The translations under genes were made by a program, and so were the position numbers. The notes below the pieces were generated by a model that saw only the letters and a list, made by a program, of their open reading frames with translations, made no database searches and had not been told where the DNA came from. From Escherichia phage Qbeta, in the sequence record NC_001890.1: 4,215 nucleotides of DNA; one strand, 5' to 3'. How positions within the stretch are numbered: position 1 is the stretch's first letter; each line of letters starts with the position of its first letter. Below, one piece after another: positions 1 through 4,215 of this stretch.

Positions 1-55
1 GGGTTCCCCCCGTAGGGGGGTACTCTATGTAGTAGCAACCATTACTGGAGGCAAC
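1..55 (+). other. 5' untranslated leader of an ssRNA phage genome, starting with GGG and containing a 5'-proximal GC hairpin (C6-C11 pairing with G15-G20, loop GTA)
   Basis: Seen directly: the sequence starts gggttccccccgtagggggg, in which CCCCCC and GGGGGG are exact reverse complements separated by 3 nt. Leviviruses characteristically start with GGG and a stable 5' hairpin. The first long ORF starts at 56. Confidence 0.8.
47..51 (+). promoter_or_regulatory. Shine-Dalgarno-like GGAGG for the maturation gene, 4 nt upstream of ATG 56
   Basis: ggagg at 47-51 followed by caac then ATG at 56-58; read directly from the sequence. Confidence 0.6.
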
Positions 56-1321
56 ATGCCACGTTTACCTAGGGCACTTCGTTTCGGACCGAATATGGAG
101 GTCTTAAGCGACTTCCAGGAACTCTGGTATCCAGAGTCCATTATCGATTCCGATGTGAAATACCCTTTGTATACCTTCAGAGGTAGCATCGGTGGATCTT
201 TCTTTGATTCTTACGGCACGAATAATATCGTCCGCGAGATTCGTAGAACGCCTCACTGTGCTACAGTACCTATAGCCAGTTCTGGCTTAAGGCCCTGTAC
301 CTCCGTTTGGTATGACCCAACCAGCTTGCTCTTCAGGATTCCTGAGATGAGGGCTGAGTGGGACAATGGCATGGGTGATGCTGGAGATATCGTCTATAAA
401 GACTTTCTCTTCAGCACCCCGGCACCTAAAGAGTTCGATTTCTCGAATTCCTTAGCGCCACGCTACAGTAATGCCTTCTCCGCTTTTAATGCCAAATATG
501 GCGTTATCATCGGTGAAGGGCACGAAACACTTAAGTATTTCGCGCTGTTACTTCGCAGGCTACATAAAGCAGTCCGTGCCGTTCGGCACGGAGATTTACG
601 TGGTCTCCGGAAAATCCTCGACTCTTATAATAAGGGTCGTTGGAAGCCTGCTACTGCTGGTAATCTCTGGCTCGAGTTTAGGTACGGTTTAACTCCGCTC
701 TTCCATGACATTAAAAGTGTTATGGATGATTGGAACCGTATTAACGACAAGATCCAGAAACTTCGCCGTTTCTCTGTTGGTCACGGTGAGGATTTCAAGC
801 TATCAATAGATGGTTTGTATCCTGGCCTAACCCACTTCAGGTTATCCGGCGAGATTACCGTCCAGCGCCGTCATCGGTGGGGTATAACCTACGCTAATCG
901 CGAAGGTTACGCCACATTCGACAACGGTTCCATTCGGCCCGTGTCCGACTGGAAGGAACTCGCTAACGCGTTTATCAACCCTGGCGAAGTTGCATGGGAA
1001 TTAACACCATACAGCTTCATCGTGGATTGGTTTATCAACGTTGGCGATATTATTGAGCAGCAGAAGCAATGGTATCAGAATATTGACATTGTCGACGGTT
1101 ACCAGCGTCGCGATATACGCATGCGTTCCGTCTCTCTTAAAGGAGTACGGAATGGCATACCTGTACGCGTTACTGGATCAGTCGAACTTGTTGATTCCTT
1201 TTACAATCGCTCTCATACTACTCGTATCCCGCAAGCCACACTAGCAATCGATACGTCCTTCTCGAGTATTAAACACGTGATGGACAGTATTTCTCTTATA
1301 ACTCAGCGCATAAAACGCTGA
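56..1321 (+). CDS. A2: Maturation (A2) protein, 421 aa; in Qbeta-type phages this is the pilus-attachment protein and also the lysis factor
   Basis: First ORF after the 5' leader, ATG at 56 with an upstream GGAGG, TGA stop at 1319-1321. The length is that expected for an allolevivirus A2 (about 420 aa). The N-terminal MPRLPRALRFG, internal blocks such as RRTPH..TVPIASSGLRP, KEFDFSNSL, NAFSAFNAKYG, KPATAGNLWLEFRYGL, and the C-terminal LITQRIKR closely match my recollection of Qbeta A2. The gene position is the canonical one. Confidence 0.95.
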   Translation: MPRLPRALRFGPNMEVLSDFQELWYPESIIDSDVKYPLYTFRGSIGGSFFDSYGTNNIVREIRRTPHCATVPIASSGLRPCTSVWYDPTSLLFRIPEMRAEWDNGMGDAGDIVYKDFLFSTPAPKEFDFSNSLAPRYSNAFSAFNAKYGVIIGEGHETLKYFALLLRRLHKAVRAVRHGDLRGLRKILDSYNKGRWKPATAGNLWLEFRYGLTPLFHDIKSVMDDWNRINDKIQKLRRFSVGHGEDFKLSIDGLYPGLTHFRLSGEITVQRRHRWGITYANREGYATFDNGSIRPVSDWKELANAFINPGEVAWELTPYSFIVDWFINVGDIIEQQKQWYQNIDIVDGYQRRDIRMRSVSLKGVRNGIPVRVTGSVELVDSFYNRSHTTRIPQATLAIDTSFSSIKHVMDSISLITQRIKR

Positions 1322-1342
1322 CCACATTGGGTCAATTCGATC

Positions 1343-1744
1343 ATGGCTAAATTACAAGCTATCACTTTAAGTGGTATTGGGAAGAACGGTGACGTTACTC
1401 TGAACCTCAACCCGCGTGGGGTAAATCCCACCAACGGTGTTGCCGCGCTTTCAGAAGCGGGTGCAGTTCCTGCATTGGAGAAGCGTGTTACAATTTCTGT
1501 ATCACAGCCTTCTCGCAATCGTAAGAACTACAAAGTTCAGGTAAAGATCCAGAACCCAACCTCTTGCACTGCAAGCGGTACTTGTGACCCTTCAGTTACT
1601 CGTTCGGCTTATGCTGACGTGACGTTCTCGTTCACGCAGTACAGCACTGATGAGGAACGTGCACTCGTACGAACAGAGCTTAAAGCCCTGTTGGCGGATC
1701 CAATGCTTATCGATGCTATCGATAACTTGAATCCGGCGTACTGA
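1343..1744 (+). CDS. cp: Major coat protein, 133 aa, ending at a leaky UGA
   Basis: ORF MAKLQAITLSGIGKNGDVTLNLNPRGVNPTNGV...QYSTDEERALVRTELKALLADPMLIDAIDNLNPAY. It is near-identical in length to the Qbeta coat protein as I recall it (MAKLETVTLGNIGKDGKQTLVLNPRGVNPTNGV...NPAY), with several recognisable blocks shared. It is the second gene in the canonical order and terminates at TGA 1742-1744 followed by A. Confidence 0.97.
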   Translation: MAKLQAITLSGIGKNGDVTLNLNPRGVNPTNGVAALSEAGAVPALEKRVTISVSQPSRNRKNYKVQVKIQNPTSCTASGTCDPSVTRSAYADVTFSFTQYSTDEERALVRTELKALLADPMLIDAIDNLNPAY

Positions 1745-2332
1745 ACTGCACTTCTTGGTGATGGCTCAGGGCCTAGCCCTGTACCGGGTCCTAATCCGGA
1801 CCCGCCACTGGAGCCGCCGCCAGGGACAGGTAGTTATACCTGTCCTTTCCGTATATGGGATCTTTCCAGCATTTATGAAGCTGCGAATAGTTCCCACTCG
1901 TGGGATATCTATAACGCTGTCGAACTCAGTCCTCGCAAATTTGACGTTACCCTTGATGACCTCTTGGGTAACACAGATTGGCGCGATTGGGACGGCAGAC
2001 TTAGGTATACCACGTTTCGCGGTAGCCGAGGTAACGGATACATTGACCTTGACGCCACTTCGTTGATGCAGGATGAATATCTTACATCTTCGAAGTATTT
2101 AGTGCGTGAGGGGAAACGTCCCGGTGCTTTCGGTTCAATTGAACGGTTTGTTTATCTTAAATCGATAAACGCATACTGTTCTCTTAGCGATATTACGGCC
2201 TACCACTCCGACGGAGTGGTAGTTGGCTTTTGGCGCGACCCGTCAAGCGGGGGAGCCATACCATTCGACTTTAGCGAGTTTGATTCGAACAAATGTCCGA
2301 TCCAAGCCGTTATTGTCGTTCCTCGTCTTTAG
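1343..2332 (+). CDS. A1: A1 read-through protein (coat plus C-terminal extension, about 329 aa), made by occasional suppression of the coat UGA at 1742-1744; a minor capsid protein needed for infectivity
   Basis: Codon-by-codon reading shows the frame stays open from the coat UGA (1742-1744) to TAG at 2330-2332, followed by an in-frame TAA at 2333-2335 (tandem stops). The 122-aa ORF 1964..2332 in the track is in the same frame (1343 and 1964 are both congruent to 2 mod 3) and is the distal part of this extension. The extension reads TALLGDGSGPSPVPGPNPDPPLEPPPGTGSYTCPF...GNGYIDLDAT...GAFGSIERFVYLKSINAYCSLSDITAYHSDGVVVGFWRDPSSGGAIPFDF...KCPIQAVIVVPRL, which matches the Qbeta A1 extension as I recall it. 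A 329-aa total equals the Qbeta A1 length. Confidence 0.92.
1742..1744 (+). other. Leaky UGA termination codon of the coat gene (programmed read-through site; context UAC-UGA-A)
   Basis: TGA at 1742-1744 followed by A at 1745 and 195 further sense codons in frame. In Qbeta the coat UGA is read as Trp at a low percentage to give A1 (established knowledge). Confidence 0.88.
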
Positions 2333-2338
2333 TAACTA

Positions 2339-2344
2339 AAGGAG
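2339..2344 (+). promoter_or_regulatory. Shine-Dalgarno AAGGAG for the replicase gene, 6 nt upstream of ATG 2351
   Basis: aaggag at 2339-2344, spacer atctgc, ATG 2351-2353; read directly from the sequence. Confidence 0.75.
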
Positions 2345-2346
2345 AT

Positions 2347-2368
2347 CTGCATGTCAAAGACACTGCAG
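2347..2368 (+). promoter_or_regulatory. Putative translational operator hairpin spanning the replicase start codon (coat-protein binding site that represses replicase translation, and likely packaging signal)
   Basis: CTGCAUGUC-AAA-GACACUGCAG folds by eye as a 5-bp lower stem (2347-2351 with 2364-2368), a single unpaired C2363, a 4-bp upper stem (2352-2355 with 2359-2362) and a 3-nt AAA loop, with the replicase AUG (2351-2353) inside the 5' arm. The Qbeta operator (AUGCAUGUCUAAGACAGCAU as I recall it) is also a 3-nt-loop hairpin with one bulge containing the replicase AUG. Confidence 0.75.
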
Positions 2369-4111
2369 TCGCGTAAGTCGCTTAGCGGAAAACTCCGCCG
2401 CGCTGCGAACACAAGAATCGTGGTTGAAGGTAACCTCGCACTGTCTATCGCGAATGATCTATTATCCGCGCTAGATGTAGAACCGTTTAATTCGGAAGAA
2501 GACTGTATAAGTCGTTCACCGAAATTCGGCATCTCACCAGATCAATTTAGGAATTCCTATCTTCGTGCTGAGATAATGTCGAAGTACGATTCTTTTAGCC
2601 TAGGTATTAATACCGAAGCCGTAGCATGGGAAAAGTTCCTAGCTGCGGAGGCTGAGTGTGCTAAGACGAATCTGAGACTCTATAGGCCTAACTACAATGA
2701 GGATTTCAATTTCTCATTGGGTGAGACATGTATTCACATGGCTCGCCGAAAAATAGTTAAGCTATTAGGAGATTCAGTTCCGTTTGAGGCTGTGTTGCGA
2801 CATTGCCGGTTTTCCGGCGGTGCCACAACAACGAATAGCCGTCTATACGGCCATCCGTCCTTCAAGTTTGCTCTTGCGCAAGAGTGTACCCCACGGGCTG
2901 TTCCATATGTGCAAGCTTTAAAGGCCTGTACAAACATGGACCTTGGTATTACCAAGGTTAGCCCTTTCAATAAAGCAGTTACTGTACCAAAGAACAGTAA
3001 AACTGATCGCTGCATCGCTATCGAGCCAGGCTGGAATATGTTTTTCCAGTTGGGCATTGGTGGCGTAATTCGCGAAAAGTTGCACTTGTGGAATATCGAC
3101 CTGAATGATCAGACGATTAACCAGGTGCGCGCATATTCAGGCAGCTGTAGCAATGAACTTGCTACAGTGGATCTCTCGAGCGCGAGTGATACTATTTCGC
3201 TTGCGCTCGTTGAGCTCCTGCTACCCCCTGCGTGGTTTAAAGTCCTTACGGACCTTAGGTCACGAAGGGGTATGTTGCCAGACGGTAGAATCATTACCTA
3301 TGAGAAAATTTCCTCAATGGGTAACGGTTTCACCTTCGAGCTCGAGTCGCTTATATTTGCAGCTCTTGCTCGGTCTTTATGCGAGTTACTGAACTTACAA
3401 CCGTCGAGTGTCACGGTCTATGGCGATGATATTATATTGCCATCAGACGCGTGCAGCTCGTTGATTGAAGTTTTCTCCTACGTAGGTTTTAGAACCAACG
3501 AGAAGAAGACCTTTTTCGACGGGCCGTTCCGAGAGTCGTGCGGAAAGCACTACTTTATGGGCGTTGACGTCACACCTTTCTACATACGCCACCGTATAGT
3601 GAGTCCCTCTGATCTCATACTGGTTTTGAACCAGATGTATCGTTGGGCCACGATTGATGGCGTATGGGATCCTAGGGTATATCCTGTATACACCAAGTAC
3701 AGACGTCTGCTGCCGGATATTCTCCGCAGAAATGTCGTACCTGATGGATATGGTGATGGTGCCCTCGTCGGATCTGTCCTTACCAGTCCTTTCGCAGAAA
3801 ATCGCGGTTGGGTTCGGCGTGTGCCGATGATAATTGACAAGAAGAAAGACCGAGTGCGTGACGAGCGTGGTTCATATCTCTATGAACTATGGTCGTTACA
3901 GCAGCTCGAATGTGACAGTGAGTTCCCGTTCAACGGGTCGCTGGTTGTTGGTACCAACGATGGAGTTTGCACTTACCGACACCGAGAGCGGGTTTCTACC
4001 GCTATCAGTGATTCGGTTGGCGCATACGACATCGTATGGATACCGTGCAGTAGTCGTGTCCTGGCTCCCTACGGGGACTTCCGGAGGCACGAAGGTTCTA
4101 TCCTAAAATAG
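2351..4111 (+). CDS. rep: RNA-dependent RNA polymerase, replicase beta subunit, 586 aa
   Basis: Longest ORF, last in the canonical order, ATG 2351 to TAG 4109-4111. It contains the catalytic YGDD motif (TVYGDDIILPSD; YGDD encoded at 3419-3430) and the other palm-domain blocks recalled from the Qbeta replicase (MSKT...LRRAANTRI, CRFSGGATTTN, PFNKAVTVPKNSKTDRCIAIEPGWNMFFQLGIGG, YEKISSMGNGFTFELESLIFA, FRESCGKHY, CSSRVLAPYG). The length is close to the Qbeta beta subunit (about 589 aa). Confidence 0.97.
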   Translation: MSKTLQSRKSLSGKLRRAANTRIVVEGNLALSIANDLLSALDVEPFNSEEDCISRSPKFGISPDQFRNSYLRAEIMSKYDSFSLGINTEAVAWEKFLAAEAECAKTNLRLYRPNYNEDFNFSLGETCIHMARRKIVKLLGDSVPFEAVLRHCRFSGGATTTNSRLYGHPSFKFALAQECTPRAVPYVQALKACTNMDLGITKVSPFNKAVTVPKNSKTDRCIAIEPGWNMFFQLGIGGVIREKLHLWNIDLNDQTINQVRAYSGSCSNELATVDLSSASDTISLALVELLLPPAWFKVLTDLRSRRGMLPDGRIITYEKISSMGNGFTFELESLIFAALARSLCELLNLQPSSVTVYGDDIILPSDACSSLIEVFSYVGFRTNEKKTFFDGPFRESCGKHYFMGVDVTPFYIRHRIVSPSDLILVLNQMYRWATIDGVWDPRVYPVYTKYRRLLPDILRRNVVPDGYGDGALVGSVLTSPFAENRGWVRRVPMIIDKKKDRVRDERGSYLYELWSLQQLECDSEFPFNGSLVVGTNDGVCTYRHRERVSTAISDSVGAYDIVWIPCSSRVLAPYGDFRRHEGSILK

Positions 4112-4215
4112 GGTAGCACCTGGGAGGGGTGCTATACGCACCCTAGGTTAGCAAACTTAAACTAACCTTCTCGAAAGAGAGAGTTGAGGGCTCTGCTTTG
4201 CCCTCACTCCTCCCA
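4112..4215 (+). other. 3' untranslated region with three predicted hairpins and a single-stranded ...CUCCUCCCA-3' tail (replicase initiation end)
   Basis: Exact inverted repeats read from the sequence: 4114-4120 tagcacc with 4128-4134 ggtgcta (7-bp stem, 7-nt loop); 4145-4151 aggttag with 4162-4168 ctaacct (7-bp stem, A-rich 10-nt loop caaacttaaa); 4185-4190 tgaggg with 4201-4206 ccctca (6-bp stem, 10-nt loop). The window ends in CCCA like leviviral genomes. Confidence 0.8.

What the first reader, a model, noticed from the sequence alone, without database searches (positions are those of the whole stretch)
1..4215. The window is a complete Qbeta-like ssRNA phage genome (cDNA), unit length with both termini
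The window carries the exact allolevivirus gene set and order (A2, coat, A1 read-through, replicase) with leviviral termini: a 5' GGG with hairpin and a structured 3' end finishing in CCCA. The window length of 4215 nt is itself allolevivirus genome size, so both ends appear to be present. The proteins are clearly related to Qbeta as I recall it but differ at many positions; by eye the coat protein differs at roughly 20 of 133 residues. This suggests a distinct Qbeta-group genotype or species (MX1/M11-like, or something new) rather than Qbeta itself.
Basis: partly seen in the sequence, partly recalled or inferred. Interest (0 to 1): 0.6.

Follow-up and report, generated by a model that had tools for sequence, protein, structure and literature searches.

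The report
Known RNA phage MX1, complete genome

Summary
The 4215-nt window has the allolevivirus (Qubevirus) layout. A2 maturation/lysis protein is at 56-1321 and coat at 1343-1744, ending in a leaky UGA. A1 read-through runs to 2332 and the replicase beta subunit is at 2351-4111. All four products give very strong Pfam matches. Both termini line up with full-length M11, Qbeta, SP and NL95 genomes (5' GGG plus hairpin, 3' ...CUCCUCCCA).

It is not a new genotype. All four proteins are 100% identical to the GenBank/RefSeq/UniProt entries for phage MX1 (AAC14698-AAC14701; NP_046749-52). Those entries come from a 4215-nt record. The window also has exactly the 53 ACA sites published for NC_001890.1, "Qbeta (MX1)", 4215 nt.

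The nearest other genome is M11 (88.8% nt).

The known Qbeta cis-elements are present: the coat-binding operator hairpin at the replicase start, the S- and M-site regions, the 3' domain and the long-range pseudoknot partner.

One side point: MX1/M11 replicases are about 70% identical to Qbeta's. That is below the 80% species criterion, although databases file them as Qbeta.

Verdict: already known, low interest.

The parts
1..55 (+). 5' untranslated leader. It starts with the GGG needed for replicase initiation and contains the 5'-terminal hairpin (nt 1-24, stem CCCCCC/GGGGGG, loop GUA). The A2 Shine-Dalgarno sequence GGAGG is at 46-50.
   Evidence: Fold. Collinear with the 5' ends of M11 and Qbeta. 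SD context. Logan contig L089 starts at window nt 7 with the same hairpin.
56..1321 (+). A2 maturation protein (421 aa). By homology with Qbeta it binds the F pilus and the genomic RNA, and it is also the lysis protein, acting as a MurA inhibitor.
   Evidence: Pfam PF03863, E = 1.6e-225. Identical to AAC14698.1 / NP_046749.1 / O64306 of MX1. Matches solved Qbeta A2 structures 5vlz/5vm7/5mnt at E = 5e-188. 64% identical to Qbeta A2.
1245..1359 (+). Region homologous to the replicase/S1 binding 'S-site', which spans the coat start codon.
   Evidence: Mapped by whole-genome alignment from the feature 'replicase binding region s' (1331-1443) of the SP record NC_004301. Function is inferred by homology only.
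1343..1744 (+). Major coat protein (133 aa including the initiator Met), ending in the leaky stop UGA at 1742-1744 followed by A.
   Evidence: Pfam PF01819, E = 1.9e-73. Identical to AAC14699.1 / NP_046751.1 / Q9T0R9. The UGA-A context is shared with M11 and Qbeta. Matches Qbeta capsid structures 1qbe/5kip.
1343..2332 (+). A1 minor capsid protein (329 aa), made by reading the coat UGA as Trp. The read-through extension is 1745-2332. It ends in tandem stops UAG UAA.
   Evidence: With W at the UGA, the translation is identical to AAC14700.1 / NP_046750.1 / O64307. Pfam PF16814, E = 1.8e-131. Matches the Qbeta read-through domain structures 3rlc/3rlk.
2347..2368 (+). Translational operator hairpin that carries the replicase AUG (2351-2353) in its stem. 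It has 9 bp, a 3-nt loop AAA, and one bulged C on the 3' side. It is the binding site for a coat dimer, which represses replicase translation and nucleates packaging.
   Evidence: Folds. The alignment of 8 genomes shows a conserved upper stem UGUC/GACA, an invariant last loop A, and 2 lower-stem pairs with compensatory changes. The role is taken from the literature on ssRNA phage operators (PMC10610835).
2351..4111 (+). Replicase beta subunit (RNA-dependent RNA polymerase, 586 aa). The catalytic YGDD motif is at residues 357-360 (nt 3419-3430).
   Evidence: Pfam PF03431, E = 4.4e-239. Identical to AAC14701.1 / NP_046752.1 / O64308. Matches Qbeta replicase structures 3mmp/3agp/4r71 at E about 1e-278. 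YGDD located.
2544..2871 (+). Region homologous to the internal 'M-site', bound by ribosomal protein S1 of the replicase holoenzyme and needed to start minus-strand synthesis.
   Evidence: Mapped from 'replicase binding region m' (2629-2956) of the SP record. It coincides with the Qbeta M-site at nt 2545-2867 quoted in PMC4176380. Function is inferred by homology.
2972..2978 (+). AAAGCAG, the upstream partner of the long-range pseudoknot with the loop of the 3'-terminal hairpin.
   Evidence: It is complementary to CUGCUUU at 4193-4199. It sits in an invariant AAUAAAGCAGU found 1195-1244 nt from the 3' end in all 8 genomes, although flanking third codon positions vary. The interaction was described for Qbeta by Klovins & van Duin 1999, cited in PMC4176380.
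4112..4215 (+). 3' untranslated terminal domain. A closing stem UGGGAG (4121-4126) / CUCCCA (4210-4215) encloses several hairpins. The last hairpin has the invariant loop UCUGCUUU. The terminus is CCCA; by knowledge of Qbeta, the final A is added without a template.
   Evidence: MFE -49 kcal/mol, z = -6.2, 0 of 200 shuffles as stable. The consensus fold of 7 genomes has 25 pairs, 6 with compensatory changes. The last 28 nt are nearly invariant across the genus.

Best explanation
The window is the cDNA sequence of the complete plus-strand RNA genome of the F-pilus-specific coliphage MX1. It belongs to genus Qubevirus (formerly Allolevivirus), genogroup III. The record is GenBank AF059242, which RefSeq distributes as NC_001890.1 under the name 'Escherichia phage Qbeta'.

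By homology it works like Qbeta.
- The genome is the mRNA for four proteins.
- Ribosomes start mainly at the coat gene.
- A few percent of them read the coat UGA as Trp and make A1, a minor capsid protein.
- Replicase translation is shut off when a coat dimer binds the operator hairpin that holds the replicase AUG.
- The replicase beta subunit joins host EF-Tu, EF-Ts and S1. It recognises the internal S and M sites, and the long-range pseudoknot brings it to the 3' CCCA. It then copies the RNA from end to end.
- One copy of A2 per virion binds the RNA and the F pilus. A2 also lyses the cell by blocking MurA, so no separate lysis gene is needed.

Shown here: identity to MX1, the gene set, the termini, the conserved RNA structures and their covariation. 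Inferred from Qbeta: every biochemical function.
For: Identity:
- A2, coat and replicase are exact-sequence matches to AAC14698.1, AAC14699.1 and AAC14701.1, which equal NP_046749, NP_046751 and NP_046752 and UniProt O64306, Q9T0R9 and O64308, 'Qbeta virus (strain MX1)'. The source contig is 4215 nt.
- A1 with Trp at the UGA equals AAC14700.1.
- The NL95 record AF059243 carries the next protein accessions, AAC14702-05. PMC4751978 gives AF059242 as MX1.
- PMC12151602 lists NC_001890.1 as 'Qbeta (MX1)', 4215 nt, 53 ACA sites. The window is 4215 nt and has 53 ACA sites. My counts for SP (47) and FI (44) also reproduce that table.
- The next closest genome is M11 at only 88.8%.

Anatomy: Pfam matches, homology to solved structures, termini, 3' domain covariation, operator, pseudoknot partner, S and M sites.
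Against: The AF059242 / NC_001890 nucleotide record is not in any collection I could read. Base-by-base identity was therefore not shown directly. Synonymous or UTR differences from the deposited record are not formally excluded. None of the functions has been tested for MX1 in anything I could read; they are transferred from Qbeta, whose proteins are 64-84% identical.
Confidence: 0.96

Rival explanations
1. It is a close but distinct MX1-lineage isolate. It encodes the same four proteins but has synonymous or non-coding differences from the deposited MX1 record.
For: I could not align the window to AF059242 itself. MX1-lineage variants do exist: Logan contig L089 is 96.5% identical to window 7-3015 and encodes the identical coat protein.
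Against: L089, at 3.5% nucleotide divergence, is found only through the identical coat protein. Its partial replicase was not compared to the window's, and the window's replicase cluster has one member. By contrast all 1336 codons of the window are identical to MX1. The length (4215) and the ACA count (53) also equal the published values for NC_001890.1. For an RNA phage, zero amino-acid changes combined with many silent changes is improbable.
Confidence: 0.03
2. It is a new Qbeta-group genotype or species not yet in the databases. This is the option the reader left open.
For: In the searchable 'phages' collection the best full-length hit is only 88.8% (M11) and no MX1 record is returned.
Against: That is a gap in the collection. 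The proteins are found by exact look-up under MX1 accessions from 1998-era GenBank records, RefSeq and UniProt.
Confidence: 0.005
3. It is phage Qbeta proper, as the RefSeq name of NC_001890 suggests.
For: RefSeq and NCBI taxonomy label the matching proteins 'Escherichia phage Qbeta'. Reviews show NC_001890.1 as the Qbeta genome (PMC12014289).
Against: Global nucleotide identity to three Qbeta isolates is 72-73%. Protein identities are A2 64-66%, replicase 69-70%, A1 77-78% and coat 84-87%. UniProt and PMC12151602 name the strain MX1.
Confidence: 0.005

Closest known systems
Enterobacteria phage MX1 (GenBank AF059242; RefSeq NC_001890.1 'Escherichia phage Qbeta')
   Same: All four proteins are identical. 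The genome length is 4215 nt and there are 53 ACA sites.
   Different: Nothing detected. A direct nucleotide comparison could not be run because the record is absent from the searchable collections.
Enterobacteria phage M11 (AF052431)
   Same: Same gene order, and collinear from the first to the last base. 88.8% nucleotide identity. Protein identities are A2 91%, coat 95%, A1 93% and replicase 89%. Same type of operator hairpin, with the bulged C on the 3' side.
   Different: 4217 versus 4215 nt. One extra C in the 5' hairpin. The replicase is 2 residues longer. The operator loop is UAA instead of AAA.
Phage Qbeta proper (e.g. AB971354, FJ483843, FJ483844)
   Same: Same four genes and the same UGA-A read-through context. 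The last 9 nt of the 3' end and the 3' hairpin loop are identical. The pseudoknot partner and M-site position match.
   Different: 72-73% nucleotide identity. Protein identities are coat 84-87% (17-21 differences), A2 64-66% and replicase 69-70%. The Qbeta operator has 8 bp with a bulged A on the 5' side, against 9 bp with a bulged C on the 3' side here. The first ~400 nt are too diverged for blastn.
Genogroup IV phages SP, NL95 and FI (Qubevirus faecium)
   Same: Same genus-level architecture. Same coat start context and 3' hairpin loop/pseudoknot partner, and the same 3' terminus in SP and NL95 (the FI record stops within the 3' hairpin).
   Different: About 63% nucleotide identity. Replicase 54-56% and A2 41-42% identical. 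Their A2 proteins are longer and, except the truncated FI record, so are their genomes.

Membership tests
Phage MX1 (the deposited genome AF059242 / NC_001890.1) | The encoded proteins are identical to those of the record. | tested here: met
   A2, coat and replicase found by exact look-up. All four, including A1 with UGA read as Trp, are identical by string comparison.
Phage MX1 (the deposited genome AF059242 / NC_001890.1) | Same genome length and composition statistics as the record. | tested here: met
   4215 nt and 53 ACA sites, as published for NC_001890.1. The source contig length of 4215 is given.
Phage MX1 (the deposited genome AF059242 / NC_001890.1) | Base-by-base nucleotide identity. 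| not testable with these tools
   The record is absent from the 'phages' collection and from the contig index.
Genus Qubevirus (formerly Allolevivirus), family Fiersviridae | Gene order maturation - coat - read-through extension - replicase on one strand of a ~4.2 kb genome. | tested here: met
   ORFs, Pfam, and the same layout as annotated M11, Qbeta, SP, FI and NL95.
Genus Qubevirus (formerly Allolevivirus), family Fiersviridae | Leaky UGA at the end of the coat gene, with an in-frame A1 read-through domain. | tested here: met
   UGA followed by A, as in M11 and Qbeta. PF16814 at E = 1.8e-131. Read-through itself is not testable here.
Genus Qubevirus (formerly Allolevivirus), family Fiersviridae | No separate overlapping lysis gene; lysis is done by A2. 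| tested here: inconclusive
   No alternate-frame + strand ORF stays open outside the close MX1/M11 clade, which fits the absence of a lysis gene. Lysis by A2 through MurA is known for Qbeta (PMC10610835) but is inferred for MX1 (A2 64% identical).
Genus Qubevirus (formerly Allolevivirus), family Fiersviridae | RdRp at least 50% amino-acid identical to other members (genus criterion of Callanan et al. 2021). | tested here: met
   54-56% to SP, NL95 and FI; 69-70% to Qbeta; 89% to M11. Criterion from PMC8743537.
Species Qubevirus durum, taken as 'same species as canonical Qbeta' | RdRp at least 80% amino-acid identical (species criterion of Callanan et al. 2021). | tested here: not met
   69.3-70.3% to the replicases of Qbeta Anc(P1), BZ1 and VK; criterion. 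NCBI nevertheless files MX1 and M11 under Qubevirus durum. I could not determine which sequence ICTV uses as the exemplar. If it is NC_001890 (MX1 itself), the criterion is met trivially and the canonical Qbeta isolates are the ones that fall outside.

The most novel reading that the evidence does not exclude
The most novel reading left open is taxonomic. The MX1/M11 clade includes environmental relatives L088 and L089. Its replicase is only about 70% identical to that of canonical Qbeta, so under the 80% RdRp rule it would be a separate species of Qubevirus. The RefSeq 'Qbeta' reference (NC_001890.1) would then not represent Qbeta. A small structural corollary is that this clade uses an operator hairpin with the bulge on the opposite strand from Qbeta's.
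Probability: 0.5. Interest if true: 0.15.

Novelty: already known. Interest (0 to 1): 0.05.

Why it matters
It matters little as a discovery. The genome has been public since the late 1990s and serves as a RefSeq reference.

There is a practical caution. The sequence circulating as the RefSeq 'Qbeta' genome is MX1, which differs from laboratory Qbeta at about a quarter of its nucleotides and about 30% of replicase residues. Anyone designing primers, mapping reads or modelling Qbeta RNA structure from NC_001890.1 is using a different phage.

The case also shows that the 80% RdRp species rule and the current filing of MX1/M11 under Qubevirus durum do not agree.

Tried and rejected
- Fetching AF059242 and NC_001890 from the annotated collections: neither is held.
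- Looking up contigs that encode the exact replicase: none on record. No direct nucleotide comparison was therefore possible.
- Rfam scan at E <= 1: only a chance mir-451 hit on the minus strand (20 bits against a gathering score of 66.5). Rfam has no matching family for the Qbeta-type elements.
It gave no close relatives.
- Hidden overlapping gene: eight alternate-frame + strand ORFs of 41-103 aa were checked in homologous frames of eight relatives. None stays open outside the MX1/M11 clade. Rejected.
- The 5307-nt contig L088, longer than any allolevivirus genome: it is a chimera with a hemocyanin transcript, not a larger phage.
- Reading Klovins et al. 1998 (PMC1369672) to confirm coordinates of the second long-range interaction: the paper is not held. 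I did not try to locate that interaction in the window.
- The original Beekwilder/van Duin papers that used MX1 for structure comparison are recalled from memory only and were not found in the library.
Full report
WHAT IS IN THE WINDOW

The + strand carries four long reading frames in the order typical of alloleviviruses.
- 56-1321, 421 aa.
- 1343-1744, 133 aa, ending in UGA.
- An in-frame continuation of the coat frame to tandem UAG UAA stops (the A1 CDS ends at 2332).
- 2351-4111, 586 aa.

Pfam assigns them to Phage_mat-A (E = 1.6e-225), Levi_coat (1.9e-73), Read-through (1.8e-131) and RNA_replicase_B (4.4e-239). The minus strand has nothing longer than 107 aa. Each protein matches a solved Qbeta structure. 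A2 matches 5vlz/5vm7/5mnt. The replicase beta subunit matches 3mmp/3agp/4r71. Coat matches 1qbe/5kip and the A1 read-through domain matches 3rlc/3rlk. The polymerase motif YGDD is at replicase residues 357-360.

ARE THE ENDS REAL?

The first 24 nt are GGG followed by a CCCCCC/GGGGGG hairpin (-14.1 kcal/mol). The z-score is weak (-1.4) because shuffling preserves the G and C runs. The better evidence is that this end aligns base for base with the 5' ends of M11 and three Qbeta isolates.

The last 104 nt fold into a multi-hairpin domain closed by UGGGAG/CUCCCA. The energy is -49 kcal/mol, z = -6.2, and no shuffle of 200 was as stable. In a seven-genome alignment the consensus structure keeps 25 pairs, six of them with compensatory changes. 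The final ~28 nt, including ...CUCCUCCCA, are almost invariant across the genus.

An independent Logan contig (L089) begins at window nt 7, inside the same hairpin.

WHAT IT IS

In the searchable phage collection the best hit is M11, at 88.8% over the full length. Qbeta isolates follow at about 75% over about 82% of the length.

The exact-sequence look-up is decisive. A2, coat and replicase are each present in the protein collection as AAC14698.1, AAC14699.1 and AAC14701.1. These equal RefSeq NP_046749, NP_046751 and NP_046752 and UniProt O64306, Q9T0R9 and O64308, named 'Qbeta virus (strain MX1)'. They come from one 4215-nt contig. A string comparison confirms all three. It also shows that the read-through product with Trp at the UGA equals the deposited MX1 A1 protein, AAC14700.1.

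Further support:
- The NL95 record AF059243 carries the immediately following protein accessions.
- PMC4751978 gives AF059242 as MX1.
- PMC12151602 lists NC_001890.1 as 'Qbeta (MX1)', 4215 nt, 53 ACA sites. The window has 4215 nt and 53 ACA sites. My counts for SP and FI reproduce the same table, so the counting method matches.

I could not fetch the nucleotide record itself, so base-by-base identity is inferred, not shown. With 1336 of 1336 codons unchanged in an RNA phage, any remaining difference would be trivial.

HOW FAR IT IS FROM ITS RELATIVES (global alignments)

| Relative | Nucleotide | A2 | Coat | A1 | Replicase |
|---|---|---|---|---|---|
| M11 | 88.8% | 91% | 95% | 93% | 89% |
| Qbeta (three isolates) | 72-73% | 64-66% | 84-87% | 77-78% | 69-70% |
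| SP / NL95 / FI | ~63% | 41-42% | 75-80% | 54-60% | 54-56% |

The coat differs from Qbeta's at 17-21 of 133 positions.

HOW IT WORKS

The functions below are inferred from Qbeta. The sequence features are shown here.

1. Read-through. The coat stop is UGA followed by A, as in M11 and Qbeta. Occasional decoding as Trp gives A1, a minor capsid protein.
2. Translational repression and packaging. Nt 2347-2368 form a hairpin with the replicase AUG in its stem. Across eight genomes the upper stem UGUC/GACA and the last loop A are conserved. Two lower-stem pairs change on both sides. In ssRNA phages this operator binds a coat dimer, represses the replicase gene and acts as a packaging signal (PMC10610835).
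3. Template recognition. The SP record annotates replicase binding regions s and m. By whole-genome alignment they map to window 1245-1359 and 2544-2871. The latter coincides with the Qbeta M-site at 2545-2867, which is bound by S1 and required for minus-strand initiation (PMC4176380).
4. Long-range pseudoknot. The loop of the 3' hairpin (CUGCUUU, 4193-4199) is complementary to AAAGCAG at 2972-2978. That motif sits in an invariant AAUAAAGCAGU found 1195-1244 nt from the 3' end in all eight genomes, although neighbouring third codon positions vary. A 7-mer alone is weak evidence, since 18% of shuffles contain one. The positional conservation is the real evidence, and it matches the interaction described by Klovins & van Duin 1999 (cited in PMC4176380).
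5. Lysis. No alternate-frame ORF is conserved beyond the MX1/M11 clade. This fits lysis by A2 through inhibition of MurA, as in Qbeta.

COMPARISON WITH WHAT IS KNOWN, AND NOVELTY

This is a known genome of a known kind. All genus-level features of Qubevirus that I could test are met (see the membership table).

One defining feature is not met at species level. The replicase is 69-70% identical to that of canonical Qbeta isolates. The published species criterion for Leviviricetes is 80% RdRp identity (PMC8743537). At that threshold the nine replicases compared form three clusters: {MX1, M11, L088}, {Qbeta Anc, BZ1, VK} and {SP, NL95, FI}. NCBI taxonomy nevertheless places MX1 and M11 under Qubevirus durum / 'Escherichia phage Qbeta'. 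Reviews depict NC_001890.1 as 'the Qbeta genome' (PMC12014289). This is a curation matter, not a biological discovery, but users of that reference should know about it.

VERDICT

Novelty is nil and interest is low.

Noticed in passing
window 2351-4111 (replicase), compared with L001, L002, L003, L007, L004-L006 and L088: MX1/M11-type replicases are 89-95% identical to each other but only 69-72% identical to those of canonical Qbeta isolates. That is below the 80% RdRp species criterion of Callanan et al. 2021, yet MX1 and M11 are filed under Qubevirus durum / 'Escherichia phage Qbeta'.
   Followed up: partly
whole window, which equals RefSeq NC_001890.1: The RefSeq reference named 'Escherichia phage Qbeta' is strain MX1, about 73% identical to laboratory Qbeta. 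At least one review figure presents it as the Qbeta genome (4215 nt). The names carried with the matching A2 and coat entries in the look-up, 'head maturation protease' and 'minor head protein', are misnomers for a levivirus.
   Followed up: partly
window 2347-2368; homologous sites in L001-L007: The operator hairpin of MX1 and M11 has 9 bp with a bulged C on the 3' side. Qbeta, NL95 and FI have 8 bp with a bulged A on the 5' side. The MX1 loop is AAA, against UAA in Qbeta and M11. The SP operator folds poorly in isolation because of a C at the third stem position.
   Followed up: partly
L088:1-1155 (JGI 3300060748, contig Ga0590761_00208, 5307 nt): An M11-like genome (92.6% to M11, 87.9% to the window) is fused at its 5' side to 1155 nt encoding a hemocyanin C-terminal domain (Pfam E = 6e-80). 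The junction replaces the first ~24 nt of the phage. This is almost certainly a chimeric metatranscriptome assembly.
   Followed up: yes
L089:1-3009 (Logan, SRR31677063): A contig 96.5% identical to window 7-3015, without gaps, encodes the identical coat protein. MX1-lineage phages therefore also turn up in other public sequencing runs.
   Followed up: partly
window 566-572: A second copy of AAAGCAG, the complement of the 3' hairpin loop, lies inside the A2 gene in MX1 and M11 only and not in the other six genomes. It is probably chance.
   Followed up: no
protein cluster of A2 (P0006, 470 aa, JGI contig of 4267 nt): One metagenomic member of the A2 cluster is 470 aa instead of 421, on a contig slightly longer than the genome. 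It is probably an upstream start call or an assembly extension. I did not examine it.
   Followed up: no
window 1-400: Both megablast and blastn fail to align the first ~400 nt (5' UTR and the N-terminal part of A2) to any Qbeta isolate, although the rest aligns at about 75%. The 5' quarter of A2 is the most diverged part of the genome between the MX1/M11 and Qbeta clades.
   Followed up: no
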